Source: Thermodesulfobacteriota bacterium
GTDB lineage: Bacteria; Desulfobacterota_D; UBA1144; Nemesobacterales; Nemesobacteraceae
Length of the DNA: 64,000 nt
Direction: 5' to 3'
NCBI GenBank assembly: GCA_965197885.1
Contig: OZ240231.1
Coordinates: forward strand, 1,839,366 to 1,903,365
Shown here piece by piece: positions 3,631-47,218 of this stretch. Within the stretch, counting starts at the first letter, position 1, and every line of letters starts with the position of its first letter. The notes under the pieces are model-generated. The model had not been told where the DNA came from and searched no databases. It worked only from the letters and a program-made list of their open reading frames with translations. A program made the translations under genes and the position numbers.

Positions 3631-5118
3631 ATGAGTTCGCAAGCCGCAAAAAGAACTGGAAAATGGAAATCCCGTATCGCTTCGGAACTCGTAGCAATAC
3701 TGGGCACAGAAGCCGTTATCTCCGCCGAGGATGAACTGATTGCCTATGAAAGCGACGGGCTTACTGGATACAGGGTAAAGCCTGTTTTCGTCGTTCTGCC
3801 TTCGAGCGTAGAGGAGGTTTCCCGGGTAGTAAAGCTTTGCAGTCGGGAGAAAATCCCTTTCGTGCCCAGAGGAGCGGGAACCGGGCTCTCCGGAGGCGCT
3901 CTTCCGAACCGTGAGGGAATAGTGATAGCGCTTTCAAGAATGAACAGGATTCTCGACGTGGATATCCCTAACCGCGTAGTAGTGGTCGAGCCCGGAGTGG
4001 TGAATATTTCTGTGACCGAGGCTGTAAGCGCCGAGGGGTTTTATTACGCCCCCGATCCTTCAAGCCAGATCGTGTGCACCATAGGAGGCAACGTTGCGGA
4101 AAACTCGGGAGGAGTGCATTGTCTTAAGTACGGAGTCACGACCAACCATGTGCTCGGAGTGGAGATGGTTCTTCCCGACGGTGATGTGATTACGCTCGGG
4201 GGCATGACCCCGGAGAATCTCGGGTACGACCTTCTCTCGCTCGTGGTTGGAAGCGAGGGACTTTTGGGGATTGTCACCAAGGTCTTTTTGAGGATAATCA
4301 AAAAACCCCAAGCGGTTAAAACTCTTTTTGCCTCGTTTGAGAGAATCGAAGATGCCGGAGCGTCGGTCTCTGCGATTATTTCTTCCGGGGTGATTCCCGC
4401 GGGAATGGAAATCATGGACAATCTCAGCATAAACGCTGTCGAATCAACTGTGGGCGCTGGATACCCAAGGGACGCCGGGGCGATTCTTCTCGTGGAGCTT
4501 GACGGGCCCGGGGTAGAAGTTAACGCTCAGGTTCCTGCCGTAATCGGGATACTTCGGGAAAACGGCGCGATTGAAATAAAGCTGGCGGCGGATGAAAGCG
4601 AGCGCCAGCTTTTCTGGAAGGGGCGTAAAAGCGCGTTTGCCGCAATGGGGAAAATAAGTCCTGGATACTATGTTCAGGATGGCGTAATACCTAGGAGCAG
4701 CTTGGCCAGGGTACTTGGAGAGATAGGGGAACTGGGTAACCGGTACGGTCTTCGAGTCGCGAACGTCTTTCACGCGGGAGACGGGAATCTGCATCCGCTT
4801 GTGCTCTATGATCCCGAAGTTGAGGGAGAATCAGAGAAAGCCGAGGAGCTTTCCGGAGAAATTCTCAGGGTATGCGTTGATGTCGGCGGGAGCATTACCG
4901 GAGAGCACGGCGTCGGGTTTGACAAAAAGAGATTCCTTCCGCTTATGTTCAGCGAACAGGAAATAGATACAATGAATTTCGTGCGGTGCGCTTTTGACGA
5001 GGAGGGGCTCTGCAATCCCGGCAAAGTATTTCCGACGCCGAGAACGTGTGTTGAGCCCGGGATGCGAAAACAGGACTCCCAAGCTCCTCCAACAAAGGAA
5101 ATGGGGGAGCTTTTCTAA
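3631..5118 (+). CDS. glcD: Glycolate oxidase FAD-linked subunit GlcD
   Basis: FAD-binding PCMH-type domain (GAGTGLSGGA). Start trimmed to MSSQAAK at 3631; the track ORF from 3298 overlaps tsaC on the opposite strand. Confidence 0.8.
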   Translation: MSSQAAKRTGKWKSRIASELVAILGTEAVISAEDELIAYESDGLTGYRVKPVFVVLPSSVEEVSRVVKLCSREKIPFVPRGAGTGLSGGALPNREGIVIALSRMNRILDVDIPNRVVVVEPGVVNISVTEAVSAEGFYYAPDPSSQIVCTIGGNVAENSGGVHCLKYGVTTNHVLGVEMVLPDGDVITLGGMTPENLGYDLLSLVVGSEGLLGIVTKVFLRIIKKPQAVKTLFASFERIEDAGASVSAIISSGVIPAGMEIMDNLSINAVESTVGAGYPRDAGAILLVELDGPGVEVNAQVPAVIGILRENGAIEIKLAADESERQLFWKGRKSAFAAMGKISPGYYVQDGVIPRSSLARVLGEIGELGNRYGLRVANVFHAGDGNLHPLVLYDPEVEGESEKAEELSGEILRVCVDVGGSITGEHGVGFDKKRFLPLMFSEQEIDTMNFVRCAFDEEGLCNPGKVFPTPRTCVEPGMRKQDSQAPPTKEMGELF

Positions 5119-5120
5119 TT

Positions 5121-6476
5121 GTGCTAGGGCCGTATTCTCGGTTTCATGGCCCGTTCGTTAAAAAGATGTCTTACGTAGCAGAATTTTCCAAGATGGTTTC
5201 AAGTTTCTATGTTCCGGGTTCTGGAGACGCGGATCGAAGCGTTCCGGAATTCGGGTTCGCTCCCGAAATAATTCTCTATCCTGAAACCGTCGAGGAGATA
5301 TCCCGGATCCTGAGGTTTGCTTCGCAAAGGAGCATCCGTGTTTTTCCTTTTGCGGGAGGCACCAAGCTTTTTCTCGGTAATCCTGTTGGGACGGTCGGAG
5401 TGGCGCTTTCGCTCAGGCGTCTTTGCAGGGTTTTGTTTCACGAACCTTCCGATATGGTTTCCACGGTTGAGTGCGGCATGGAGGTCAGGGAGTTTCAGAA
5501 GGTTGTCGGGTGCGAGAATCAGCTTTTTCCCGTGGATCCGCCCCGTCTTACCTCCGGGGCGACTGTGGGAGGGCTGGTGTCAACAAATCTTTGCGGTCCA
5601 CTGAGCACCAGATACGGTACCTGCAGGGAACTTATCCTCGGAGTCAAAGCCGTAAGGGCTGACGGCGAGATCATAAATTTGGGAGGAAAAGTAGTTAAAA
5701 ACGTAGCGGGCTATGATATTCCTAAACTTATGGTAGGTTCGCTCGGAACCCTGTGCGTTTTGGTAGAAGCGACTTTCAGGCTCTATCCCCGACAGCCATT
5801 ATCTAGGACTGTTGTCCTGAGTTTCGACGAGCATGTTCCCTGTTCCCGGGCTGCCCGAGCGATACTTGCTGCGGATATTGTTCCCACATGCTTTGAAATA
5901 CTGGATGAAAAACTCTCTTCTGAGCTTGAAGTGGCACAGGGGGCGAAAAGGAGCATCCTGCTTCGGTTCGACAGTTTCGAAGATGCCGTAGTCGACCAAA
6001 TAAAACAGGTAGGGGAAATAACCTCAGGCGAGTCTGCTGCCTTTGTTGAAATGGACGATGAGCATTCGCAGAACTTATGGGATGCGGTAAGGGAGTTTCC
6101 GTTTTCGCCCGAGGCGAGTTTTTCCTCCAAACTCACTCTTCCCGTCACGGGCTCAATAGAGGTTCTTTCTGATATTGAGAGTAATCCGGCGCTCTCGGGA
6201 GTCACGGTGCGATGTCTTTCAAGGCCTGCCAGAGGGGTTGCGCTTGTTTCTGTAAGCGGCGAGAGTGACAGGGCGGTCGGCGCATCGCGTTTTCTCGAAA
6301 ATCTTGCTGATTCGCTCGGGGGCCGTATCATGTTTTCGGGAATCCGCCACGAACTCAGAGAGAGGGTAAAAGCGTGGGGAGATTTCGGAGAGGCGCTTTT
6401 GCTTATGAAAAACATTAAACGGCGTTTTGATCCCGGGGACATACTGCCCGGCGAAAAAATACTCGACGCGGACTGA
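5121..6476 (+). CDS. glcE: Glycolate oxidase FAD-binding subunit GlcE, with a C-terminal extension
   Basis: FAD-binding domain (LGGKVVKNVAGYD) immediately downstream of glcD. The true start may be the internal MSYVAEF. Confidence 0.7.
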   Translation: MLGPYSRFHGPFVKKMSYVAEFSKMVSSFYVPGSGDADRSVPEFGFAPEIILYPETVEEISRILRFASQRSIRVFPFAGGTKLFLGNPVGTVGVALSLRRLCRVLFHEPSDMVSTVECGMEVREFQKVVGCENQLFPVDPPRLTSGATVGGLVSTNLCGPLSTRYGTCRELILGVKAVRADGEIINLGGKVVKNVAGYDIPKLMVGSLGTLCVLVEATFRLYPRQPLSRTVVLSFDEHVPCSRAARAILAADIVPTCFEILDEKLSSELEVAQGAKRSILLRFDSFEDAVVDQIKQVGEITSGESAAFVEMDDEHSQNLWDAVREFPFSPEASFSSKLTLPVTGSIEVLSDIESNPALSGVTVRCLSRPARGVALVSVSGESDRAVGASRFLENLADSLGGRIMFSGIRHELRERVKAWGDFGEALLLMKNIKRRFDPGDILPGEKILDAD

Positions 6477-6487
6477 GGATACTGATT

Positions 6488-7282
6488 ATGATAAGAAGAG
6501 AATCCGGCGAGGGATGGACACTCATAACGCAGCCAAGCCATGCTTTTCTTTCTTCTAGAATAATGAATTTCTGGGGCAATGAGGATTTTGAAAGCATCGC
6601 TCCCAGAGATGAGGTGATGCTGGCGATAAGAGAACATGACTGCGGATGGGAGAAAACGGATACCATGGCTGAACTCAACCCGGGAAACGGCTATCCAAGA
6701 AACTTCATGGAGATGCGGGCCGAGAGCCAGTTAGAGATCTGGTCCGAGTGTTTCAAGAGACATCTCGGCGAACATCCATACGCCTGCGCGCTTATAGCGC
6801 TTCACTTCTCCGAACTTAACGACAGAACCATATACAGAGATCCGGCCAACGAAGCGGCCGTTTCGCTTAGAAAGAAAATCAGGGAACTTCTGCGCCAAAG
6901 CCTTGGGATCAAAACTGGAGAAGGAAGCCTGAATGGATACCTTCCTGCCGATGTCCGGACCAATGTCAGGTTTCTTCAGGTAGGTGACATAATATCGCTT
7001 GCTTTTTGTCACGGAACAAAATCAGTCACGATTCCTGATGTTCCGGTTAATTACCTCGGAGACACGACGGAAGTAACCCTGCTATCAGAAGACGGGCTTA
7101 ACTATACAGTTTTCCCCAATCCTTTTTCACGGGACTTACTTCGTTTTGACATATCGGGCAGAAAACTTGAGAAAAAATCGTTTGGCGCGACGTCGGAACT
7201 TGAAGAAGCGTTTTGCCACGCGGGCGGCGAAACCTTCGATCTTTCGATTTCTTTGCGAGTGGAGGGAAAGAATGTCGCTTGA
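6488..7282 (+). CDS. Hypothetical protein, possibly DUF3891-like, between glcE and glcF
   Basis: 264-aa ORF on the same strand. Its stop overlaps the glcF start as ATGTCGCTTGA. Confidence 0.4.
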   Translation: MIRRESGEGWTLITQPSHAFLSSRIMNFWGNEDFESIAPRDEVMLAIREHDCGWEKTDTMAELNPGNGYPRNFMEMRAESQLEIWSECFKRHLGEHPYACALIALHFSELNDRTIYRDPANEAAVSLRKKIRELLRQSLGIKTGEGSLNGYLPADVRTNVRFLQVGDIISLAFCHGTKSVTIPDVPVNYLGDTTEVTLLSEDGLNYTVFPNPFSRDLLRFDISGRKLEKKSFGATSELEEAFCHAGGETFDLSISLRVEGKNVA

Positions 7283-8567
7283 GACCGCTTTTGACGATAC
7301 AGACCGCCCGAGCAGGAAGATAATACAGGATTGCGTTCACTGCGGGTTCTGTCTTCCCTCCTGCCCCACCTATCTTGAAACCGGAAACGAACTCGACTCT
7401 CCCAGGGGAAGAATCCATCTGATAAAAGCCGCGGAAGAGGGGAGAATCCCGATGGGTTCCTCGCTTGTAAAACATCTTGACCTGTGTCTTGGGTGTCTTG
7501 CCTGTGAAACCGCGTGTCCCTCAGGAGTCAAGTATGGAAGCCTGATAGAAATGTCGAGGGATCAGATTGAAAGGAGATTCAAGAGGGGGCTGCGGGAGAA
7601 AATGCTAAAGGCTTTTATCTTCAGCATTTTTCCCTATCCGCGAAGGCTAAGGTTTCTTCTGCCGTTTGTCTACCTAGTAAAAGCACTTGGCCTTAAGAAA
7701 ATTTTCCCGCCGTGGCTTCTTGACAGGGTAAGTCTCTCGGCTTCTTCCATGTTCCATATGCTCCCCGAGGTCAACTCTGCTTTCGGGGAAACTCTTACGG
7801 CTTTTTATCCGGCACTTGGAGAGAGAAAAAAGAGAGTCGCTCTTCTGAGCGGCTGCGTGCAGGGGGTTTTTTTCCCCGAAATAAACAGGGCTACGGCCGA
7901 AGTGCTTAGCGCAGGCGGTTGCGAAGTTCTTGTTCCGCAGAATCAGGGGTGCTGCGGAGCCCTTTCCATTCACTCTGGAAGGCTTGAGGAGGGAAGGAGG
8001 TTCGCAAGAAGACTCGTGGATCTTTTCGCCGCCGTGGATGTAGATGCCATAGTTGTTAATTCCGCTGGATGCGGTTCGACCATGAAGGAGTACGTCGAGA
8101 TTCTGCGGGGGGATCCGGTTTACTTCGAAGCTGCAGCGCGACTTTCAGAGAAAACCGTAGATGTCATGGAATTTCTTTCAGATATGGAAATCGGGGCGCA
8201 ACTGCACCCTCTTGATATAAGGGTTACTTATCAGGACGCGTGCCATATCGTTCACGGCCAAGGGATAAAATCTGCTCCAAGGGAACTTCTGAAAAGCGTC
8301 CCGGAGCTCACGCTTACCGAGATGCAAAGATCGGATCACTGCTGCGGAAGTGCCGGAATATATAATATGATACAACCGGAGATGTCCGCCAAGCTCCTTT
8401 CTGGGAAGGTGCGGGAAATACAAAAAACCGGTGCCGATTATCTGGCTGTCGGGAACCCTGGATGCATGATGCAGATCCGCAAGGGGTTGCTCGGCTCAGA
8501 CTCTGGAACCAAGATTGTACATCCCGTCGAAATCATCAACTGGTCGCTCAAAGGTGGTATCAGTTAA
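7272..8567 (+). CDS. glcF: Glycolate oxidase iron-sulfur subunit GlcF
   Basis: Two 4Fe-4S ferredoxin motifs (CVHCGFCLPSCP, CLGCLACETACP) and two CCG cysteine-rich domains. Start set at MSLETAF. Confidence 0.8.
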   Translation: MSLETAFDDTDRPSRKIIQDCVHCGFCLPSCPTYLETGNELDSPRGRIHLIKAAEEGRIPMGSSLVKHLDLCLGCLACETACPSGVKYGSLIEMSRDQIERRFKRGLREKMLKAFIFSIFPYPRRLRFLLPFVYLVKALGLKKIFPPWLLDRVSLSASSMFHMLPEVNSAFGETLTAFYPALGERKKRVALLSGCVQGVFFPEINRATAEVLSAGGCEVLVPQNQGCCGALSIHSGRLEEGRRFARRLVDLFAAVDVDAIVVNSAGCGSTMKEYVEILRGDPVYFEAAARLSEKTVDVMEFLSDMEIGAQLHPLDIRVTYQDACHIVHGQGIKSAPRELLKSVPELTLTEMQRSDHCCGSAGIYNMIQPEMSAKLLSGKVREIQKTGADYLAVGNPGCMMQIRKGLLGSDSGTKIVHPVEIINWSLKGGIS

Positions 8568-8586
8568 GCAAAGTCAGGAGACGCTT

Positions 8587-8883
8587 TTAACCCAGCACAG
8601 AGTCCTTGCAGGCTTTTGCCACCCTGAACTTCAATACCTTTCTAGCCGGTATGTTGATTGCTTCACCGGTAGCGGGATTTCTTCCCATTCTGGCGCTACG
8701 ATTGCTAATAACCAGTTTGCCGACTCCGGGAATTGTAAATTCTCCTTTTGCTTTTACTTCTTCACATGCAATTGACGCTATAGAGTCAATAACGGTTTTG
8801 GCTGTTGCCTTCGTTATTCCCACCTTCTCTGCGAGGCTGCTTGAAAGCTGGGATTTTGTTAATGGTTTTTCGTTCACTAACAT
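8587..8883 (-). CDS. hup: HU family DNA-binding protein
   Basis: 98 aa with a typical HU/IHF fold signature (GFGKF-like GEFTIPGVGKL, RNPATGE). Confidence 0.85.
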   Translation of the reverse strand: MLVNEKPLTKSQLSSSLAEKVGITKATAKTVIDSIASIACEEVKAKGEFTIPGVGKLVISNRSARMGRNPATGEAINIPARKVLKFRVAKACKDSVLG

Positions 8884-9021
8884 CCTCCTTAAGGATTTCT
8901 TAGTAGATTATCGGAGTATTTTGGTTAAAAGTCAATCATTTTATCCGTTGTTGCCAAACCTCAGGACTCTTGATACTGTATAAATATCCTGTTTTATTTG
9001 AATTTTTGGGTGGAAAGCTAG

Positions 9022-10155
9022 ATGAGATCTTGGTTCAGGGAAAAGAGAAGCTGGTTGGTTTTCCTTTCAATATTCTTGGGGTTCCTCTTTGTTCTGGTTT
9101 TTCTGTATGCGAAGTTTCTTTACGAAAGGGAGTCGAATGCGCACTATCATTCAGAAGAGAGCGCCTACAGGCCCATAAAGGTAATGACGCCTGTTTCATC
9201 TTCAGGTTCAATTTACACCGAAGTTCTCGGAAGGGTCCGCGGCAAGCAGACTGTCTTGGTCCGCACGACCGTTTCGGGATGGGTAAGGCGGATAGATTCC
9301 GGCCGGGGCCAAGAAATTGAGAAGGACGGAATCATTCTGGAGCTCTACGATTACCGTGTGGAAACGCGGCTTGACGAGGCGAAGTACAATCTTGAATCCG
9401 TTAGGGGAAAGCTTGCCGAGGCCGACAGAGTATACCGAAGGAACACGGCTCTTTTTGAGAAGGGAATAGTATCTGGGGATGAGACCGAAGCGTCGCGCAA
9501 CCTGTTTGAAACCGCTTCGGCAAGTGTAAAAGCGCTTGAAGCTTCTTACAACAGGGCCAAGTGGAATTATGACAACCTCAAAATCCGGTCCCCTATCCAG
9601 GGTCAGGTTGTTGAAATCGTTCCCGACATCGGACAGGAAATAAGAAACGGGGACGTAGTAGCGAGGGTCGTTAACCTAAGTGGCAGAAAAGTAATAGCTG
9701 GTGTGGACGTGTTGGTTGCTAGAGGCGTCAAGCGGGGGGATGTTCTGGAGGTGGTTCTCTCAAGAGATGGCATTGTGGAAACCGTCAAGGGCGAAGTTGA
9801 GGGCGTAAGTCCAGGTTCTGATGATTTCTCGGGTACCTACGATATCGAGATTGCCATATCCGATCCCTCGGTAAAATGGTGGCCGGGGGAAATAGTTTCC
9901 GTGAAAATATTGATGCGGAGATTTGATAATGTCGTCAAGATTCCTAAAACAGCCGTTTTATTCGACAATAAGGAAGCTTTTTCTTTCGTGCTGGTCGAGA
10001 AAAATGGGGAAGTTTCCAAGATTAAAGTGACACCCACCTGGATTGACAATAACTCGGCTTACATATCTTTTAATTCACTTCCGCCAGATTCCAGAATTAT
10101 AACCGAGGGAAACTTCGGTCTGCTTCCTGGCCAACTAGTAAGGATTATCGACTGA
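9022..10155 (+). CDS. Efflux RND transporter periplasmic adaptor subunit (HlyD/membrane fusion protein family)
   Basis: N-terminal TM segment, coiled-coil region and beta-barrel/lipoyl-like motifs. Its C-terminal RIITEGNFGLLPGQLVRIID is duplicated in degraded form at 16141-16204. Confidence 0.75.
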   Translation: MRSWFREKRSWLVFLSIFLGFLFVLVFLYAKFLYERESNAHYHSEESAYRPIKVMTPVSSSGSIYTEVLGRVRGKQTVLVRTTVSGWVRRIDSGRGQEIEKDGIILELYDYRVETRLDEAKYNLESVRGKLAEADRVYRRNTALFEKGIVSGDETEASRNLFETASASVKALEASYNRAKWNYDNLKIRSPIQGQVVEIVPDIGQEIRNGDVVARVVNLSGRKVIAGVDVLVARGVKRGDVLEVVLSRDGIVETVKGEVEGVSPGSDDFSGTYDIEIAISDPSVKWWPGEIVSVKILMRRFDNVVKIPKTAVLFDNKEAFSFVLVEKNGEVSKIKVTPTWIDNNSAYISFNSLPPDSRIITEGNFGLLPGQLVRIID

Positions 10156-39852: not shown

Positions 39853-39908
39853 TTGACTTAGGAAATTATTTACTTATTATAGCAGATAATGATATTTTAT
39901 GCATATCA
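39853..39908 (+). promoter_or_regulatory. abiEi promoter with an inverted-repeat operator
   Basis: -35 TTGACT at 39853-58, a 16 nt spacer, and -10 TATTAT at 39875-80. The inverted repeat TGATAT-N7-ATATCA lies at 39890-39908 over the predicted transcription start. Confidence 0.45.
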
Positions 39909-39922
39909 ATACGGAGACTGCC

Positions 39923-40720
39923 ATGAATAATAAGCGCCCTAGGGCAAGCAGTGTCATAGATGAGTTTGCCTCGGTCGGCCGGTACCATTTCACTGCCGCG
40001 GAAATACGTTCGGCACTAGGCGTATCAGATGCTGCGACTAGACTTGCTCTTGGAAGGCTGGTGAAAAAAGGTTTGGTTGCGAGTCCGGGCCGTGGCTTCT
40101 ACGTCATCGTGCCGCCCGAATACCGACGCTTCGGATGTCTGCCTCCGGCCCAGTTTATCCCGCAGCTTATGGAGCGTCGTGAACGACCGTACTATGTCGC
40201 TTTGCTTTCCGCCGCCCAGTATCATGGGGCCGCTCATCACCGTCCGCAGGTATTCCAAGTCGCCGTCTCCGGAAGCCGCCGCCCGATTTCCTGTGGCGCG
40301 GTCAGGGTTTCCTTCATCTCACGGGCGCGCATTGCCGAGGTTCCGGTTCAGACTCTCAATACGCCATGCGGGACGCTTCTTCTTTCAACCGTTGAAGCAA
40401 CCGCGGTTGACTTGGTGGGTTACGCGCGACGCGCTGCGGGGTGGGACAACGTGGCGACAATTCTCTGCGAACTTGCTGAAGAAATTGATCCGAATCTGCT
40501 GTGCGAAGCTGCGCGAACCGCTCCGGTCACCTGGGCTCAGCGCCTTGGCTATCTCCTGGAACTTGTCGGCGCGGCGGATAAGGCGTTGCCGCTAAAGAAC
40601 TATGTGCGGCGCTACGCCCGTGACATCACGCCGCTCATTCCGCATGCCGCCGTAGATCACGCGAGGCGCGCCGATGACTGGCGGCTGTTGGTAAATGCCG
40701 ACGTGGAGTCTGAGGTATGA
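39923..40720 (+). CDS. abiEi: AbiEi family antitoxin/transcriptional regulator (type IV toxin-antitoxin system)
   Basis: N-terminal winged helix-like region and the AbiEi architecture. GC is clearly higher than in the flanks. Start set at MNNKRPR with a ggaga RBS; the track start at 39899 lies inside the operator. Confidence 0.7.
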   Translation: MNNKRPRASSVIDEFASVGRYHFTAAEIRSALGVSDAATRLALGRLVKKGLVASPGRGFYVIVPPEYRRFGCLPPAQFIPQLMERRERPYYVALLSAAQYHGAAHHRPQVFQVAVSGSRRPISCGAVRVSFISRARIAEVPVQTLNTPCGTLLLSTVEATAVDLVGYARRAAGWDNVATILCELAEEIDPNLLCEAARTAPVTWAQRLGYLLELVGAADKALPLKNYVRRYARDITPLIPHAAVDHARRADDWRLLVNADVESEV

Positions 40721-41532
40721 TCCCGCACCGTTACATCGCCGAGTGGCGAACTCAGGCACCGTGGCTGGAGGATTTCCAAGTCGAGCAGGACCTAATAATA
40801 AGCCGCGCGCTAGTTGAAATATTTTCCCATCCCGTCTTGGCGGCCGGACTTGCTTTTCATGGCGGCACGGCCCTCTACAAACTCTACCTGGAGCAGTCGA
40901 GCCGTTATTCGGAAGATATAGATCTGGTTCGGATAGCTCCCGGACCCGCCGGTGCCATAATGGATTCCATTCACGAAGTTCTCGATCCGTGGCTCGGTAA
41001 ACCTAAATGGAAACAGACCGAGCGCTCCGTTACGCTTCTTTACAGGTTTGAATCAGAAGATACACCGCCTTTACGCATGACTCTGAAAATTGAGATCAAT
41101 TCCCGCGAGCACTTCTCTGTCTTTGGCTATAATAAAGTTCCTTTTTCCGTCATTTCTTCCTGGTTTAACGGAACCTGTGATATTGTTACGTACTCGCTAG
41201 ACGAGCTTCTCGGCACGAAATTGCGCGCCCTTTATCAGCGCAAGAAAGGACGGGATCTTTTTGACTTGGCAACTGCGCTGGATAACGCGGCTGTCGATCC
41301 CGAACGTGTTATCACAGCATTTTTCGAATACATGAAACGGGGCGGCGACCACATCACCCGTGCCTTGTTTGAACGAAACATGGCGGACAAACTGCAAGAC
41401 CCGCGATTTGACGCCGACATAGTACCCTTGCTGGCGCCTGGCTGCCTCTGGAATATGGAAGAGCTGGCTAGAAGCGTTTCCACACGGCTCATTGCATTGT
41501 TGCCCGGTCAACCGTGGAAGGGAGAGGGATGA
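40717..41532 (+). CDS. abiEii: Nucleotidyltransferase AbiEii/AbiGii toxin family protein (DUF1814)
   Basis: HGGTALYKLY...RYSEDIDL nucleotidyltransferase motif. ATGA overlap with abiEi. Confidence 0.8.
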   Translation: MIPHRYIAEWRTQAPWLEDFQVEQDLIISRALVEIFSHPVLAAGLAFHGGTALYKLYLEQSSRYSEDIDLVRIAPGPAGAIMDSIHEVLDPWLGKPKWKQTERSVTLLYRFESEDTPPLRMTLKIEINSREHFSVFGYNKVPFSVISSWFNGTCDIVTYSLDELLGTKLRALYQRKKGRDLFDLATALDNAAVDPERVITAFFEYMKRGGDHITRALFERNMADKLQDPRFDADIVPLLAPGCLWNMEELARSVSTRLIALLPGQPWKGEG

Positions 41533-43973: not shown

Positions 43974-45329
43974 ATGAAAAGGGAACTTGATTTTGAGAAG
44001 AAAACTTTCGCGGGGGCACTTGAGATCGTAAAGACCCTCGGGGAAAAGGGGCACGAAGCTTTTTTCGTGGGCGGATGCGTGCGCGACGCCCTGCTTGGTG
44101 TTGCGTGCGACGAGATCGATATAGCCACAAGCGCGACTCCGGAGCAGGTGCAGCAAGCGTTTGAGAAGACCGTGGCCGTGGGGGAGAGCTTCGGCGTGGT
44201 GCTCGTGATAAAAGGAGACATGAAGTTTGAGGTTGCCACTTTCAGGAGGGAGTCAAGATATGGTGACGGAAGACACCCAGAAAGTGTCGACTACACGAAA
44301 AGTGCGGAAGAAGATGTCCGAAGAAGGGATTTTACGATCAACGGCATGTTGTACGACCCGGTTTCGGGAGAGCTTTACGATTATGTGGAAGGCCTTGGGG
44401 ATCTTGAACGTGGATTGGTCAGGACCATAGGGGATCCCGAGAAAAGGTTCGGCGAGGACAGGTTGAGAATGATGAGGGCGGTGCGCTTTACGTCATGTCT
44501 CGGTTTTGAGCTTGACGGGGCGGCGCTTTCGGCCATCCGTGAGGCGGCTTCAGGCATATCTGTTGTAAGCGGAGAGAGAATACGGGAAGAACTCGTTAAG
44601 ATACTTACCCGCCAAAATCCGGGTGCCGGACTCAGTCTTCTGAGCTCCTGCGGTCTTCTTCAGCACTTTCTCCCGGAAGTCGAATGCATGCATGGAGTGC
44701 AGCAGCCTCCTCAGTTCCATCCCGAAGGTGATGTGTTTGACCACACCTGTCTCGTGATGGAGATGCTCTATGGCAACACAGACGGCCGCTACTCTGAGGA
44801 ACTTGCGGTTGCCGCGCTTCTCCATGATGTGGGCAAGCCGCCTACTTACAGCGAATCCGACAGGATAAGGTTCAACGGACATGACAGGGTGGGGGCCAGG
44901 ATGTCGGAGGATATATGCAGGAGGCTCAGATTTTCCAAAAAGCAGATAAAGAGAATTTCCGAGCTTATCCTCGAGCATCTCAAGTTCAAGGACGTTTTCA
45001 ATATGAGAGAAAGTACCCTGAAAAAATTCCTTTCACTTCCGTATTTTGAAGAACATATGCAAATGCATCTTGCCGACTGCATGGCCAGCCACGGGAAAAC
45101 GGACGCCTACGATTTTATCAGGGAAAAGATGGAGGAGTACGGACGGGAGGAAATAAAGCCCCTTCCGCTTCTCGGCGGAGGGGATCTTATAGACCTCGGT
45201 TATTCTCCCGGTCCCGTTTTTTCCGAAATACTGGGACAGGTGGAAGAACTCCAGCTTGAAAACAGGCTTTCCTCAAAGGAAGAGGCTATAGATTTTGTTC
45301 TGAAAAATTATCCCGGCAACAACAGTTAG
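43974..45329 (+). CDS. cca: CCA tRNA nucleotidyltransferase with an HD domain
   Basis: GGCVRD and DIDIAT polymerase-beta motifs, and the HD motif LLHDVGK. Confidence 0.85.
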   Translation: MKRELDFEKKTFAGALEIVKTLGEKGHEAFFVGGCVRDALLGVACDEIDIATSATPEQVQQAFEKTVAVGESFGVVLVIKGDMKFEVATFRRESRYGDGRHPESVDYTKSAEEDVRRRDFTINGMLYDPVSGELYDYVEGLGDLERGLVRTIGDPEKRFGEDRLRMMRAVRFTSCLGFELDGAALSAIREAASGISVVSGERIREELVKILTRQNPGAGLSLLSSCGLLQHFLPEVECMHGVQQPPQFHPEGDVFDHTCLVMEMLYGNTDGRYSEELAVAALLHDVGKPPTYSESDRIRFNGHDRVGARMSEDICRRLRFSKKQIKRISELILEHLKFKDVFNMRESTLKKFLSLPYFEEHMQMHLADCMASHGKTDAYDFIREKMEEYGREEIKPLPLLGGGDLIDLGYSPGPVFSEILGQVEELQLENRLSSKEEAIDFVLKNYPGNNS

Positions 45330-45350: not shown

Positions 45351-45530
45351 TCACGATCTGACCTGTAGTGGCAGATTTTCCGGATCAATAGCAAAGGCAG
45401 CGGGATCACCGAGCCATTCGTCCGCATATTCGAATACAGAACTTCGGCCTTGGGGCCTGAAATGGCGTAACAGTCCGACCATGCGTGCACCGTCTGGCCG
45501 ATCAATATGGACTTCAATTGTGTCTGTCAT
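45351..45530 (-). pseudogene. hipA: Truncated HipA toxin gene: only the N-terminal 59 codons remain
   Basis: Frame read by eye as MTDTIEVHIDRPDGARMVGLLRHFRPQGRSSVFEYADEWLGDPAAFAIDPENLPLQVRS, which fits the HipA N-terminal domain pattern (VG.L, F.Y...WL, LPL). ATGA overlap with the upstream XRE gene. The kinase core is absent. Confidence 0.5.
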
Positions 45531-45898
45531 CGGAAAATCCTGTTTTTCCTGCGGCGGGTAGGCATGATTTTCTTGGGCAGATGGTCCTCGTCGAGGTCAA
45601 GACCCAAGGTGTCATTGATGCGATCGGCAACTTGACCGAGGCCTTCTGCGAGACCAAGGATAGCGAGAACTGCCGCGTAGATACCTATCGAGACTGTGGG
45701 GTCGCCCTTTTCAACCTTGTAAAGCGTGGCGCGACTGATAAAGGCGCGTTCCGCCATTGAGACCGTCGAGATACGGCGTTTTTTGCGCGCAACAGCTATA
45801 TCCGCGCCGAGTTTCACTAAAGCTCGCCGGGCTGCCCGAGGAAGCGTTCTTGGTGCTTGTGATTTCATAATTTGTCTTATATTATTACCGATAGACAT
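45527..45898 (-). CDS. hipB: XRE-family HTH regulator (HipB-like antitoxin)
   Basis: HTH motif ISTVSMAERAFISRATLYKVEKG. The start is uncertain: ATG at 45898, 45868, or GTG at 45922. Confidence 0.6.
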   Translation of the reverse strand: MSIGNNIRQIMKSQAPRTLPRAARRALVKLGADIAVARKKRRISTVSMAERAFISRATLYKVEKGDPTVSIGIYAAVLAILGLAEGLGQVADRINDTLGLDLDEDHLPKKIMPTRRRKNRIFR

Positions 45899-45921
45899 TA
45901 GTTTGTCTATTATACAAGACA
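45873..45921. promoter_or_regulatory. Cluster of TGTCT/AGACA half-sites at the hipB 5-prime end (putative HipB operators)
   Basis: TGTCT 45873-77, AGACA 45893-97, TGTCT 45904-08, AGACA 45917-21. They form TGTCT-N8-AGACA and ATAGACA-N6-TGTCTAT palindromes. Confidence 0.45.
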
Positions 45922-46161
45922 CTAAATTAAAAAAAGAGGTTGCGGGTGTGCCGACAAACCTGTGATTACAGTCGGAGCACTTCTTCGCGAAATATGTCTT
46001 TCGGGTAATTTACATAAGATGCATGGCTTGGATGGAAGGCCGGAATCTGCAAATAACGGGTTCTTCTCCCACAACAGGCCATGAACGGAACGGCAGGGAA
46101 TAAAATAAAAGACGGAGAACGACGTATTGTTCCGCTGTTCCCCGTCCTTGTTGTGTATGCG

Positions 46162-46488
46162 TCAGATTTTTCCCTGAAGCAGGAATGCTATCAGCAGGGC
46201 GTAGATTACCAGAGACTCGATCAGGGCGAGACCAATAATCATCGGCGGCTGAATCTTCCCCGAAGCGCCGGGATTTCTTGCTATGCCGTCAAGGGCGCCA
46301 GCCGTTGCGAGCCCTTGTCCTATTCCCGCGCCGCCGGCGGCTATGCCTATTCCTACGCCGGCACCGATGCCAAGCCCCATTTTCGCCATTTCTCCTAGGC
46401 CCCCCTCCGTCGCGGCAACCGCGTCAGGAACGAAAGCGCCCAGCGAAACAAGCGCCGTCAGACCTATAAAAGAAAACAACCTTCTCAT
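46162..46488 (-). CDS. atpE: F0F1 ATP synthase subunit c with an N-terminal signal-like extension
   Basis: Gly-rich helix 1 ([20 protein letters not shown]), ARNP loop and IGLALIESL. It is 108 aa versus the usual ~80. Confidence 0.85.
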
Positions 46489-46528: not shown

Positions 46529-47218
46529 TCATTGTTCATGCGCTTCGGCAAGCGCGATATATATGGTCGAAAGCATAGCGAATATAAAAGCCTGTAGAAA
46601 AGATACGAAAATACCTAGTCCCACAAAAGCCATGGGAATCAATATATGCGTGAGGTTGGTAAATACCCCAAGCACCATGTGGTCGCCCGTTATGTTCATG
46701 AAAAGCCTTAGGGAAAGCGACAGGGGTCTTACGAGATGGCTTACCACCTCGATGATCACCATAAGCGGCGCTAGGAAAATTACCGGGCCCAGAAAATGTT
46801 TCAGGTAACCGAACCCGTGCTCCCTTATTCCGTAGTAGTTGTACACGACGAATATGAGAAGCGAACACGCGACCGTGGTGTTGAGATTTCCGGTCGGCGC
46901 AAGAAAGCCCGGAATCATTCCCAGCAGGTTCGCAAACAATATGAAGAAAAACGACCCGGCTAGAAGCGGGAAGTATTTTTTGGCTTTCTCGCGGGATCCG
47001 AACACGGTTTCAATTGTGGTGAAAAGAAACTCAAGCCCAATGAGTTCGTAGAAAACATTCATCGACGGCTTTTCTTCGGGGATTACGGATTCTTCTTTCG
47101 AGTAATGATTTTTTATCCTCAAGCCCGTAAACAGTATGAACAAAATTACGAGCACTCCGCCCAGAATATGGTCGTATTCTATAAGACCGGCCAGTGAAAA
47201 CCAGCTGAAATGTTCCAT
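46529..47218 (-). CDS. atpB: F0F1 ATP synthase subunit a
   Basis: Conserved LSLSLRLFMNITGDH region containing the essential Arg. Confidence 0.9.
   Translation of the reverse strand: MEHFSWFSLAGLIEYDHILGGVLVILFILFTGLRIKNHYSKEESVIPEEKPSMNVFYELIGLEFLFTTIETVFGSREKAKKYFPLLAGSFFFILFANLLGMIPGFLAPTGNLNTTVACSLLIFVVYNYYGIREHGFGYLKHFLGPVIFLAPLMVIIEVVSHLVRPLSLSLRLFMNITGDHMVLGVFTNLTHILIPMAFVGLGIFVSFLQAFIFAMLSTIYIALAEAHEQ

What the first reader, a model, noticed from the sequence alone, without database searches (positions are those of the whole stretch)
45351..45925. Decaying hipBA module with intact HipB, a truncated HipA N-terminus, and four operator half-sites
The XRE-type regulator gene (45527-45898) is translationally coupled by an ATGA overlap to a 59-codon ORF that is too short for the ORF track. 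Read by hand, it fits the HipA N-terminal domain pattern (VG.L, F.Y...WL, LPL). The HipA kinase core is missing and the ORF stops just before the convergent cca gene. Upstream of hipB are four TGTCT/AGACA half-sites forming TGTCT-N8-AGACA and ATAGACA-N6-TGTCTAT palindromes, reminiscent of the multi-operator HipB binding region. This is either a toxin-inactivated TA remnant whose antitoxin and operators persist as an orphan regulator, or a genuinely novel short HipA-N protein. It lies between cca and the atpI-atpB-atpE group.
Basis: partly seen in the sequence, partly recalled or inferred. Interest (0 to 1): 0.55.

Follow-up and report, generated by a model that had tools for sequence, protein, structure and literature searches.

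The report
HipBA toxin-antitoxin remnant, toxin deleted
This is an ordinary hipBA toxin-antitoxin module in which a roughly 1.07-kb deletion removed the HipA kinase toxin, leaving the HipB repressor gene, its operators and a 59-codon toxin stub; it is one stage in the usual decay of such modules.

Summary
hipB (best start 45868, 113 aa, not 45898) overlaps by ATGA a 59-codon ORF (45530-45351). That ORF is HipA codons 1-56 plus three codons read from former intergenic DNA.

Syntenic Dadabacteria/Thermodesulfobacteriota genomes carry atpE - hipB - full hipA (406-410 aa, Pfam HipA_C 175 bits) - convergent cca at this site. Against them the window lacks 1,068-1,083 bp, with the junction at 45362|45361. 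An independent contig (L012, 98.5% identical) has the same deletion, so it is an inherited allele and not an assembly error.

Among 26 species loci (L013-L037 plus L052), 14 are intact and 9 lack the module. One has an independent hipA deletion that spares hipB, one keeps only a degenerate hipB remnant, and one lacks atpE nearby. Together these form a toxin-first decay series.

The four TGTCT/AGACA half-sites are real. TGTCT-N8-AGACA encloses a TATAAT and is conserved. The outer half-sites lie 39-40 nt apart and co-vary across the wider family. The ATAGACA-N6-TGTCTAT palindrome is specific to the window's clade.

The "novel short HipA-N protein" reading is not supported. Whether hipB is still under selection cannot be decided. 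This is a known kind of thing, of low interest.

The parts
45527..45868 (-). hipB: XRE-type HTH antitoxin/autorepressor, 113 aa, intact
   Evidence: Pfam HTH_31 2.6e-5 and NCBIfam couple_hipB 3.9e-7, both below their cutoffs. Best PDB match is 9u9g, 'XRE family transcriptional regulator, HipB', E = 8.8e-13. There are 768 homologues, 75-97% identical among the listed hits, and they are followed by full-length hipA in the neighbourhoods inspected. The start at 45868 is set by family conservation. One window-specific change, T66A, falls at a site that is 96% conserved.
45351..45530 (-). hipA remnant ORF, 59 codons: HipA codons 1-56 (45530-45363; the deletion junction lies inside codon 57), then codons 57-59 (VRS) and the stop, read almost wholly from former hipA-cca intergenic DNA
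   Evidence: 55 of 56 residues are identical to intact L013 HipA. tblastn to L001 HipA residues 1-57 gives E = 7e-24. Pfam Couple_hipA is only E = 0.2.
45361..45362 (.). Deletion junction. 1,068 bp are missing relative to L001 and 1,083 bp relative to L013, from hipA codon 57 to about 20 nt past the hipA stop
   Evidence: blastn shows two collinear blocks that abut in the window and are 1,068 or 1,083 bp apart in the relatives. No microhomology is seen at the junction. L012 has the identical junction.
45904..45921 (-). Operator O1: TGTCT-TGTATAAT-AGACA on the hipB sense strand. The N8 spacer contains a perfect TATAAT, a -10-like hexamer
   Evidence: The pattern occurs once in the window against 0.04 expected. 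It is conserved in almost all Dadabacteria hipBA loci and in several metagenome loci, including HipB only 49% identical. In many family members a TTGAcc-like hexamer lies 16-17 nt upstream of the TATAAT-like spacer (read by eye).
45873..45890 (-). Operator O2: a degenerate inner half-site, N8, then AGACA, ending 4 nt before the hipB ATG. It is the inverted partner of O1
   Evidence: Inverted repeat with 13-nt arms at 45873-85 and 45909-21, 85% complementary. The equivalent repeat has 28-nt arms in L002 and 17-nt arms in L006. The outer half-sites lie 39-40 nt apart across the family and co-vary as TGTCT/AGACA, TGTCC/GGACA and CGTCT/AGACG.
45891..45910 (.). Clade-specific palindrome ATAGACA-N6-TGTCTAT. 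The extra half-site at 45893-45897 occurs only in the window, L001, L012 and L013
   Evidence: other Dadabacteria and proteobacterial loci lack this half-site.

Best explanation
The locus is a chromosomal type II hipBA toxin-antitoxin operon whose toxin gene was destroyed by a single deletion of about 1.07 kb.

Ancestral state, shown by synteny: hipB and hipA overlap by ATGA and lie between atpE and the convergent cca gene. Inferred by analogy with E. coli and Shewanella HipBA: HipB dimers bind two N8-spaced operators arranged as a roughly 49-bp inverted repeat. O1 covers the TATAAT -10 element and O2 abuts the start codon, so HipB represses its own operon. [quoted passage not shown]

In the window lineage the deletion runs from hipA codon 57 to about 20 nt past the hipA stop. 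It removes the rest of the N-domain and the whole HipA_C kinase core, including the GGARPK (residue 174), DDHLRN (about 302) and SPAYDL (321) motifs. The reading frame runs on for three codons into former intergenic DNA and stops.

The result is a non-toxic locus with an intact, probably still self-repressing hipB and a 59-codon stub. The stub may still be translated through the ATGA coupling, but it is most likely functionless.

Because losing hipB first would release the toxin, decay has to go toxin-first. The window is therefore the expected intermediate between intact modules and the degenerate or empty sites seen in sister species.
For: **Synteny.** L001, L002-L005, L013 and 13 further species loci have atpE - hipB - hipA (403-410 aa) - cca. 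Full-length relatives pass the Pfam cutoffs for HipA_C (175.6 bits) and Couple_hipA (34 bits) and match HipA and HipT structures.

**Deletion.** The junction maps to 45362|45361. The stub is 55 of 56 identical to L013 HipA.

**Inheritance.** L012 has the same allele over a gapless 8,180-bp alignment at 98.5% identity. In the cca tree the window and L012 fall in one tight group with the intact L001 and L013.

**Decay series.**
- L027 has an independent deletion of about 977 bp covering hipA codons roughly 6-330 plus a frameshift, with hipB intact.
- L029 keeps only a degenerate hipB remnant.
- Eight loci are empty and L014 has unrelated DNA in place of the module.
- Further decayed copies occur in unrelated metagenome contigs, and truncated HipA-N ORFs with unrelated tails occur in the protein library.

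**Operators.** Conservation, constant spacing and compensatory changes in the outer half-sites are shown. The N8 geometry matches E. coli; Shewanella uses GTGTA-N6-TACAC repeated four times (PMC4150777).
Against: No experiment here shows HipB binding, transcription of the remnant, or toxicity of the intact relatives' HipA.

The direction of change at empty sites (loss versus never gained) is not resolved. Only L027, L029 and the window/L012 allele are demonstrably losses.

hipB has stayed intact in two strains that differ by dS of about 0.045. Its dN/dS is 0.43 (5 nonsynonymous, 4 synonymous), which is below neutral but not significantly so (binomial P = 0.18). A retained function for hipB therefore cannot be excluded.

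Only 64 kb of this genome was visible, so a hipA paralogue elsewhere is possible.
Confidence: 0.9

Rival explanations
1. Orphan HipB kept by selection. After hipA was lost, hipB and its operators are maintained as a working regulator. It could act as an anti-addiction or immunity factor that neutralises or represses incoming mobile hipBA modules of the same family, or as a cross-regulator of a paralogous hipBA elsewhere in the genome.
For: hipB and both operators are intact in the window, L012 and the independently deleted L027. dN/dS of hipB between the two deletion-bearing strains is 0.43, below 1. The same family (HipB 77% identical, same operator layout) sits in ICE-like contexts with a TraG-type coupling protein and IS21 in marine alphaproteobacterial contigs, so exposure to mobile copies is plausible.
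Against: Toxin-first loss is forced by the lethality of losing the antitoxin first, so hipB-only intermediates are expected without any selection. The N:S ratio does not differ significantly from neutral (P = 0.18). The window HipB carries T66A at a site that is 96% conserved. L029 shows that hipB does eventually degenerate at this site. No second hipA lies within the 64 kb.
Confidence: 0.2
2. A genuine short HipA-N protein, HipS/HipA^N-like. In this reading the 59-aa product is a functional small protein, for example an antitoxin or modulator of a split HipT/HipA^C kinase as in the tripartite HipBST systems.
For: The ATGA coupling to hipB is preserved. Free-standing HipA N-subdomain proteins do exist and act as antitoxins: HipS, and H. 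influenzae HipA^N of 106 aa (PMC9438503, PMC8262856). The identical ORF is present in a second strain (P0121/L012).
Against: The stub holds 56 HipA residues, about half of the roughly 100-aa N-subdomain-1. Its C-terminal three codons and stop are accidental read-through into intergenic DNA. No HipA_C kinase gene lies next to it or anywhere in the window. The only differences in the stub from L012 and from L013 are nonsynonymous (A15V, S28G), with no synonymous change. Pfam Couple_hipA is not significant. Other short HipA-N ORFs in the databases have unrelated frameshift tails, which marks them as pseudogene products.
Confidence: 0.03
3. Assembly artefact. In this reading the deletion is a mis-join in a metagenome assembly and the real genome has a full hipA.
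For: The window probably comes from a metagenome-assembled genome. A co-occurring strain with full hipA exists in the sample that yielded L012 (L001 at 573x against L012 at 11x by contig name).
Against: The same junction, to the base, occurs in an independent contig (L012) that differs from the window at 124 of 8,180 positions. No repeat or microhomology at the junction would promote a mis-join. Both flanks are collinear with the relatives.
Confidence: 0.02

Closest known systems
E. coli K-12 / Shewanella oneidensis hipBA (type II TA; HipB XRE repressor plus HipA Ser/Thr kinase)
   Same: Gene order hipB then hipA, with overlapping stop and start codons. HipB is an XRE-type HTH protein. Relatives' HipA has Couple_hipA plus HipA_C domains. 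Multiple palindromic operators lie upstream. The 5-bp half-sites separated by 8 bp match the E. coli geometry; Shewanella has N6 repeated four times (PMC4150777).
   Different: In the window the kinase is deleted. The half-site sequence is TGTCT/AGACA rather than the Shewanella GTGTA/TACAC (PMC4150777) or the E. coli TATCC/GGATA (the latter from my own recollection, not checked here). There are two operators in inverted orientation rather than four. HipB is 113 aa with a basic C-terminal tail. Sequence similarity of HipA to E. coli HipA is low (PDB hits E about 1e-7 over the kinase core). The target of the kinase is unknown.
PDB 9u9g, 'XRE family transcriptional regulator, HipB' (153 aa)
   Same: It is the closest solved relative of the window HipB, E = 8.8e-13 over residues 9-98, covering the HTH and the following helix.
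   Different: Only distant similarity. I found no paper for this entry in the library, so nothing about its operator or partner can be transferred.
HipS / HipA^N of tripartite HipBST systems (E. coli O127, Legionella, H. influenzae)
   Same: A small ORF homologous to the HipA N-terminus, located directly downstream of hipB.
   Different: HipS and HipA^N are about 100-106 aa, cover the whole N-subdomain-1, and are followed by a HipT/HipA^C kinase gene that they neutralise (PMC9438503, PMC8262856). The window ORF has 56 homologous residues, arose by deletion, and has no kinase partner in the window.
Orphan (solo) antitoxins and degenerate chromosomal TA loci in general
   Same: The toxin is lost first and the antitoxin and its autoregulatory region persist. 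Presence is patchy among sister species and neighbouring IS insertions are seen.
   Different: Nothing essential. This is one more instance, documented here with its intact, independently deleted, degenerate and empty sister alleles.

Membership tests
HipBA type II toxin-antitoxin module | Upstream gene encodes an XRE/Cro-type HTH protein (HipB) | tested here: met
   HTH_31 2.6e-5, HTH_26 and HTH_3. NCBIfam couple_hipB 3.9e-7, below its cutoff. PDB HipB 9u9g E = 8.8e-13. In the eight listed hits whose neighbourhoods were looked up (P0002, P0007, P0095; P0027, P0085, P0089, P0106, P0111 by matching contig length), hipB homologues adjoin full-length hipA.
HipBA type II toxin-antitoxin module | Downstream gene encodes a HipA kinase with a HipA_C catalytic domain | tested here: not met
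   In the window only codons 1-56 remain, and there is no HipA_C anywhere in the 64 kb. The feature is met in syntenic relatives (HipA_C 175 bits). The window is therefore a remnant of a member, not a working member.
HipBA type II toxin-antitoxin module | N-terminal HipA domain (Couple_hipA) in the short ORF | tested here: inconclusive
   Pfam gives E = 0.2 and 12.6 bits against a 22.5 cutoff, because only about half the domain is present. Direct homology to full-length HipA is unambiguous: 55 of 56 identical to L013 and E = 7e-24 to L001.
HipBA type II toxin-antitoxin module | Bicistronic operon with overlapping or coupled genes | tested here: met
   ATGA overlap at 45527-45530. The same arrangement is seen in relatives.
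HipBA type II toxin-antitoxin module | Palindromic HipB operators over the promoter (autoregulation) | tested here: inconclusive
   The sequence evidence is strong: a conserved TGTCT-N8-AGACA enclosing TATAAT, and an inverted second site with co-varying outer half-sites. Binding and repression cannot be tested with these tools.
HipBA type II toxin-antitoxin module | Toxin arrests growth and the antitoxin neutralises it | not testable with these tools
   This needs expression of the L013/L001-type HipA with and without HipB.
HipS / HipA^N small antitoxin (tripartite HipBST) | A protein of about 100 aa covering the whole HipA N-subdomain-1 | tested here: not met
   56 homologous residues plus 3 accidental ones. 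HipA^N is 106 aa (PMC9438503) and N-subdomain-1 is about 100 aa (PMC8262856).
HipS / HipA^N small antitoxin (tripartite HipBST) | An adjacent HipT/HipA^C kinase gene lacking the N-subdomain | tested here: not met
   The next gene is the convergent cca, 21 nt away. tblastn with HipA finds nothing else in the window.
Orphan antitoxin retained under selection | Purifying selection on the antitoxin after toxin loss | tested here: inconclusive
   dN/dS is 0.43 on 9 substitutions between the two deletion-bearing strains, against 0.20-0.25 for the pairs that involve the intact L001 (0.34-0.52 for the pairs with intact L013). The binomial test against neutrality gives P = 0.18.

The most novel reading that the evidence does not exclude
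HipB and its dual operator are kept by selection after toxin loss, as an immunity (anti-addiction) device against horizontally arriving hipBA modules of the same family. That family circulates on ICE-like elements with near-identical HipB and the same operator layout. Two independent hipA deletions at this locus (window/L012 and L027) both spare hipB and the operators.
Probability: 0.15. Interest if true: 0.4.

Novelty: new member of a known kind. Interest (0 to 1): 0.2.

Why it matters
It matters little beyond annotation. The locus should be annotated as hipB plus a hipA pseudogene fragment, not as a TA system or a new small protein.

The modest value is comparative. One chromosomal site (cca-atpE) in a little-studied clade of uncultured Dadabacteria/Thermodesulfobacteriota shows every stage of TA turnover: intact, two independent toxin deletions, a degenerate antitoxin, empty sites, and IS-invaded sites.

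The wider HipB family also shows a clearly defined dual operator with compensatory half-site changes. That gives a ready-made target for anyone testing HipB-DNA recognition or the anti-addiction hypothesis.

Tried and rejected
- **Pfam and NCBIfam on the 59-aa ORF.** Nothing significant (Couple_hipA E = 0.2).
- **Post-deletion decay of the stub.** I suspected that the divergent patch in the stub (LLRHFRPQGR against WFRYVDRRHSQ in L001, with a 3-nt indel) reflected decay after the deletion. Rejected, because the intact L013 HipA has the same patch.
- **Microhomology or repeats at the deletion junction.** None found.
- **Exact 22-nt junction search in JGI metagenome contigs.** No hit. The allele is known only from the window and L012.
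- **Exact-sequence look-up of the window's 59-aa product.** Not on record. The 98% identical P0121 is.
- **Literature search for PDB 9u9g.** Only irrelevant hits.
- **Selection test on hipB after toxin loss.** Too few substitutions to decide.
- **My automatic parser for outer half-site pairs.** It mis-anchored several loci, for example L001, L013, L109, L119 and L127. The pair counts I quote are corrected by eye from the sequences printed and are approximate.
- **The cca tree.** L019 is misplaced because I extracted the wrong coordinates, so its long branch should be ignored.
- **Structure prediction.** Not run, because it would not change the verdict.

Full report
**What is in the sequence.** On the minus strand an XRE-type gene ends at 45527. 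It overlaps by ATGA a 59-codon ORF that runs from 45530 to 45351 and stops 21 nt from the end of the convergent cca gene (43974-45329). Upstream lie atpE (46162-46488), atpB (46529-47218) and an unassigned 113-aa membrane ORF. They form TGTCT-N8-AGACA (45904-45921) and ATAGACA-N6-TGTCTAT (45891-45910). TGTCT-N8-AGACA occurs once in the window against 0.04 expected.

**Identity of the two ORFs.** Profile libraries are weak here. The HTH protein hits HTH_31 (2.6e-5) and NCBIfam couple_hipB (3.9e-7), both below cutoff. The 59-aa ORF hits Couple_hipA at only E = 0.2.

Homology and gene context settle the matter. The HTH protein has 768 homologues, and the listed best hits are 75-97% identical. Its closest solved relative is a protein deposited as HipB (9u9g, E = 8.8e-13). 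In the neighbourhoods I looked up, the gene downstream is a 406-407-aa protein with HipA_C. Those full-length proteins pass the Pfam cutoffs for HipA_C (175.6 bits) and Couple_hipA (34 bits) and match HipT and HipA structures. The window ORF is 55 of 56 identical to the N-terminus of the L013 protein.

Family conservation starts at the ATG at 45868 (MKSQAP...), which gives a 113-aa HipB.

**The deletion.** The reverse complement of the window aligns to L001, a 2.14-Mb contig, as two collinear blocks (95% and 97% identity in the stretch compared). The blocks abut at window 45362|45361 but lie 1,068 bp apart in L001. Against L013 (OZ252213.1), the closest species representative with an intact 410-aa hipA, the gap is 1,083 bp.

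The deletion starts in hipA codon 57 and ends about 20 nt past the hipA stop. The frame then reads V-R-S-stop from what used to be the hipA-cca spacer. Everything catalytic is gone: GGARPK at residue 174, DDHLRN at about 302, SPAYDL at 321, and Pfam HipA_C spanning 173-382. No microhomology flanks the junction.

A second contig, L012 (ERZ25072670 ctg181949), has the same junction. It aligns without gaps over 8,180 bp at 98.5% identity, with 124 differences. The deletion is therefore an inherited allele shared by two diverged strains and not an assembly error. L012 comes from the same sample as the intact L001 strain.

**Clade survey.** A scan with the cca protein recovered 26 Dadabacteria/Thermodesulfobacteriota species loci, L013-L037 and L052. 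Their state at the cca-atpE site:

| State | Number | Loci |
|---|---|---|
| Intact hipBA | 14 | two of these, L025 and L033, have an extra ~2.7 kb between cca and hipA |
| Empty | 8 | L017, L018, L020, L022, L024, L032, L036, L037 |
| Unrelated 1.7 kb in place of the module | 1 | L014 |
| hipB intact, independent ~977-bp hipA deletion (codons ~6-330) plus a later frameshift | 1 | L027 |
| Degenerate hipB remnant only | 1 | L029 |
| No atpE nearby | 1 | L052 |

In a cca tree, intact and empty states are interleaved. The window and L012 sit in one tight group with the intact L001 and L013 (L019 is misplaced by my extraction error).

Metagenome loci of the wider family show the same pattern. Most have full hipA, but several unrelated lineages carry truncated or frameshifted copies. 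The protein library holds many short HipA-N ORFs with unrelated tails.

This is the familiar toxin-first decay of chromosomal TA loci. Loss of hipB first would be lethal, so hipB-only intermediates are expected.

**Is anything still under selection?** The divergent patch in the stub is shared with intact L013, so it predates the deletion. Since then the stub has gained only nonsynonymous changes: A15V in L012 and S28G relative to L013.

hipB differs between the window and L012 by 5 nonsynonymous and 4 synonymous changes, a dN/dS of 0.43. Pairs that involve the intact L001 give 0.20-0.25. The other pairs give 0.34-0.52, including window-L013 at 0.52. Flanking genes give 0.04-0.46 (0.08 for cca, 0.46 for atpB). 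The departure from neutrality is not significant (P = 0.18). The window HipB has one change, T66A, at a site that is 96% conserved. I cannot decide between residual constraint and insufficient time.

**Regulatory region.** On the hipB sense strand the window reads TGTCT-TGTATAAT-AGACA-AACTAA-TGTCT-ATCGGTAATAATATA-AGACA-AATT-ATG.

Comparison across 19 syntenic loci and 56 distinct metagenome upstream regions shows a conserved layout:
- A left site, TGTCT-N8-(A/G)(G/A)ACA, whose spacer is TATAAT-like.
- An inverted right site ending in AGACA, 0-4 nt before the ATG.
- Outer half-sites a constant 39-40 nt apart.

The repeat finder reports this as an inverted repeat with 13-nt arms in the window, 28-nt arms in L002 and 17-nt arms in L006.

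The outer half-sites change together. The counts below are corrected by eye and are approximate.

| Outer half-site pair | Distinct upstream regions |
|---|---|
| TGTCT/AGACA | about 37 |
| TGTCC/GGACA | about 9 |
| CGTCT/AGACG | 4 |
| One-sided intermediates (TGTCT/GGACA) | about 5 |

The exact TGTCT-N8-AGACA also appears upstream of HipB proteins only 49% identical (L155-L158). In many loci a TTGAcc-like hexamer lies 16-17 nt upstream of the TATAAT-like spacer, so O1 overlaps the -10 element. In the window the consensus scan instead proposes TAGACA-N17-AATAAT. Which promoter is used is not resolved, and there is no obvious Shine-Dalgarno sequence.

The third half-site (45893-97), and with it the ATAGACA-N6-TGTCTAT palindrome, occurs only in the window, L001, L012 and L013.

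The N8 geometry matches E. coli hipBA. Shewanella uses GTGTA-N6-TACAC four times (PMC4150777). Binding itself is inferred, not shown.

**Comparison with known systems.** The locus works like, and descends from, a canonical bicistronic hipBA. It is not a working member, because the defining kinase gene is absent.

It is not a HipS/HipA^N-type small antitoxin. Those are about 100-106 aa, cover the whole N-subdomain-1 and precede a split kinase gene (PMC9438503, PMC8262856). This ORF has 56 homologous residues, an accidental tail, and no kinase in the 64 kb.

**Verdict.** Its alternative, a novel short HipA-N protein, is rejected. The phenomenon is well known and I score interest at 0.2. The one reading with some novelty that the evidence does not exclude is selective retention of HipB as an anti-addiction factor against mobile copies of the same module, which occur in ICE-like contexts. 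I give that a probability of about 0.15.

Noticed in passing
window 39899-41532 (+): An apparently intact AbiEi (PF09407, 3e-45) and AbiEii (PF08843, 9e-38) pair with overlapping genes lies about 4 kb from the hipB remnant, next to xseA. It is a second TA/abortive-infection module in the same neighbourhood.
   Followed up: partly
L001 2247-3342; L004 647-2416: In sister strains the atpE-hipB spacer is invaded by IS elements: an IS1595-family transposase plus small ORFs in L001, and a DDE_Tnp_1 transposase in L004. The cca-atpE gap is an insertion hot spot.
   Followed up: no
L025 and L033 (about 6350-9080); L014 6348-8071: Two species carry about 2.7 kb of extra DNA between cca and hipA. L014 has 1.7 kb of unrelated DNA where hipBA would be. 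The content was not examined.
   Followed up: no
L006-L011 (marine alphaproteobacterial contigs), hipB at 4001-4336: A hipBA with HipB 77% identical to the window's and the same inverted-operator layout sits among a TraG-type T4SS coupling protein, DUF3363, Peptidase_S26, IS21 and Mu-like transposase genes. The module appears to travel on ICE-like elements across phyla.
   Followed up: partly
L027 6342-7299: An independent hipA deletion in another species. The first 5 hipA codons are fused to about codon 330, followed by a frameshift, and hipB (112 aa) and the operators are intact.
   Followed up: yes
L129, L130, L132 (hipB only); L140-L143 (frameshifted hipB plus hipA stub to residue 89): A metagenome lineage with the CGTCT/AGACG operator variant has no intact hipA. 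On L130 and L132 two hipB copies lie 2.64 kb apart, which suggests a repeated unit.
   Followed up: no
P0122, P0124, P0128, P0131 (protein library): Short ORFs of 66-110 aa begin like this HipA family and then continue with unrelated tails, several diverging near the LPL motif around residue 57. They are probably frameshifted or truncated hipA genes, and whether that breakpoint recurs was not tested.
   Followed up: partly
It is conserved in position in sister genomes.
   Followed up: no
window 45868-45873 and family-wide: The right-hand operator half-site ends 0-4 nt before the hipB ATG, and no Shine-Dalgarno-like sequence is visible. hipB may be translated from a leaderless or SD-independent mRNA. 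The transcription start is unknown.
   Followed up: no
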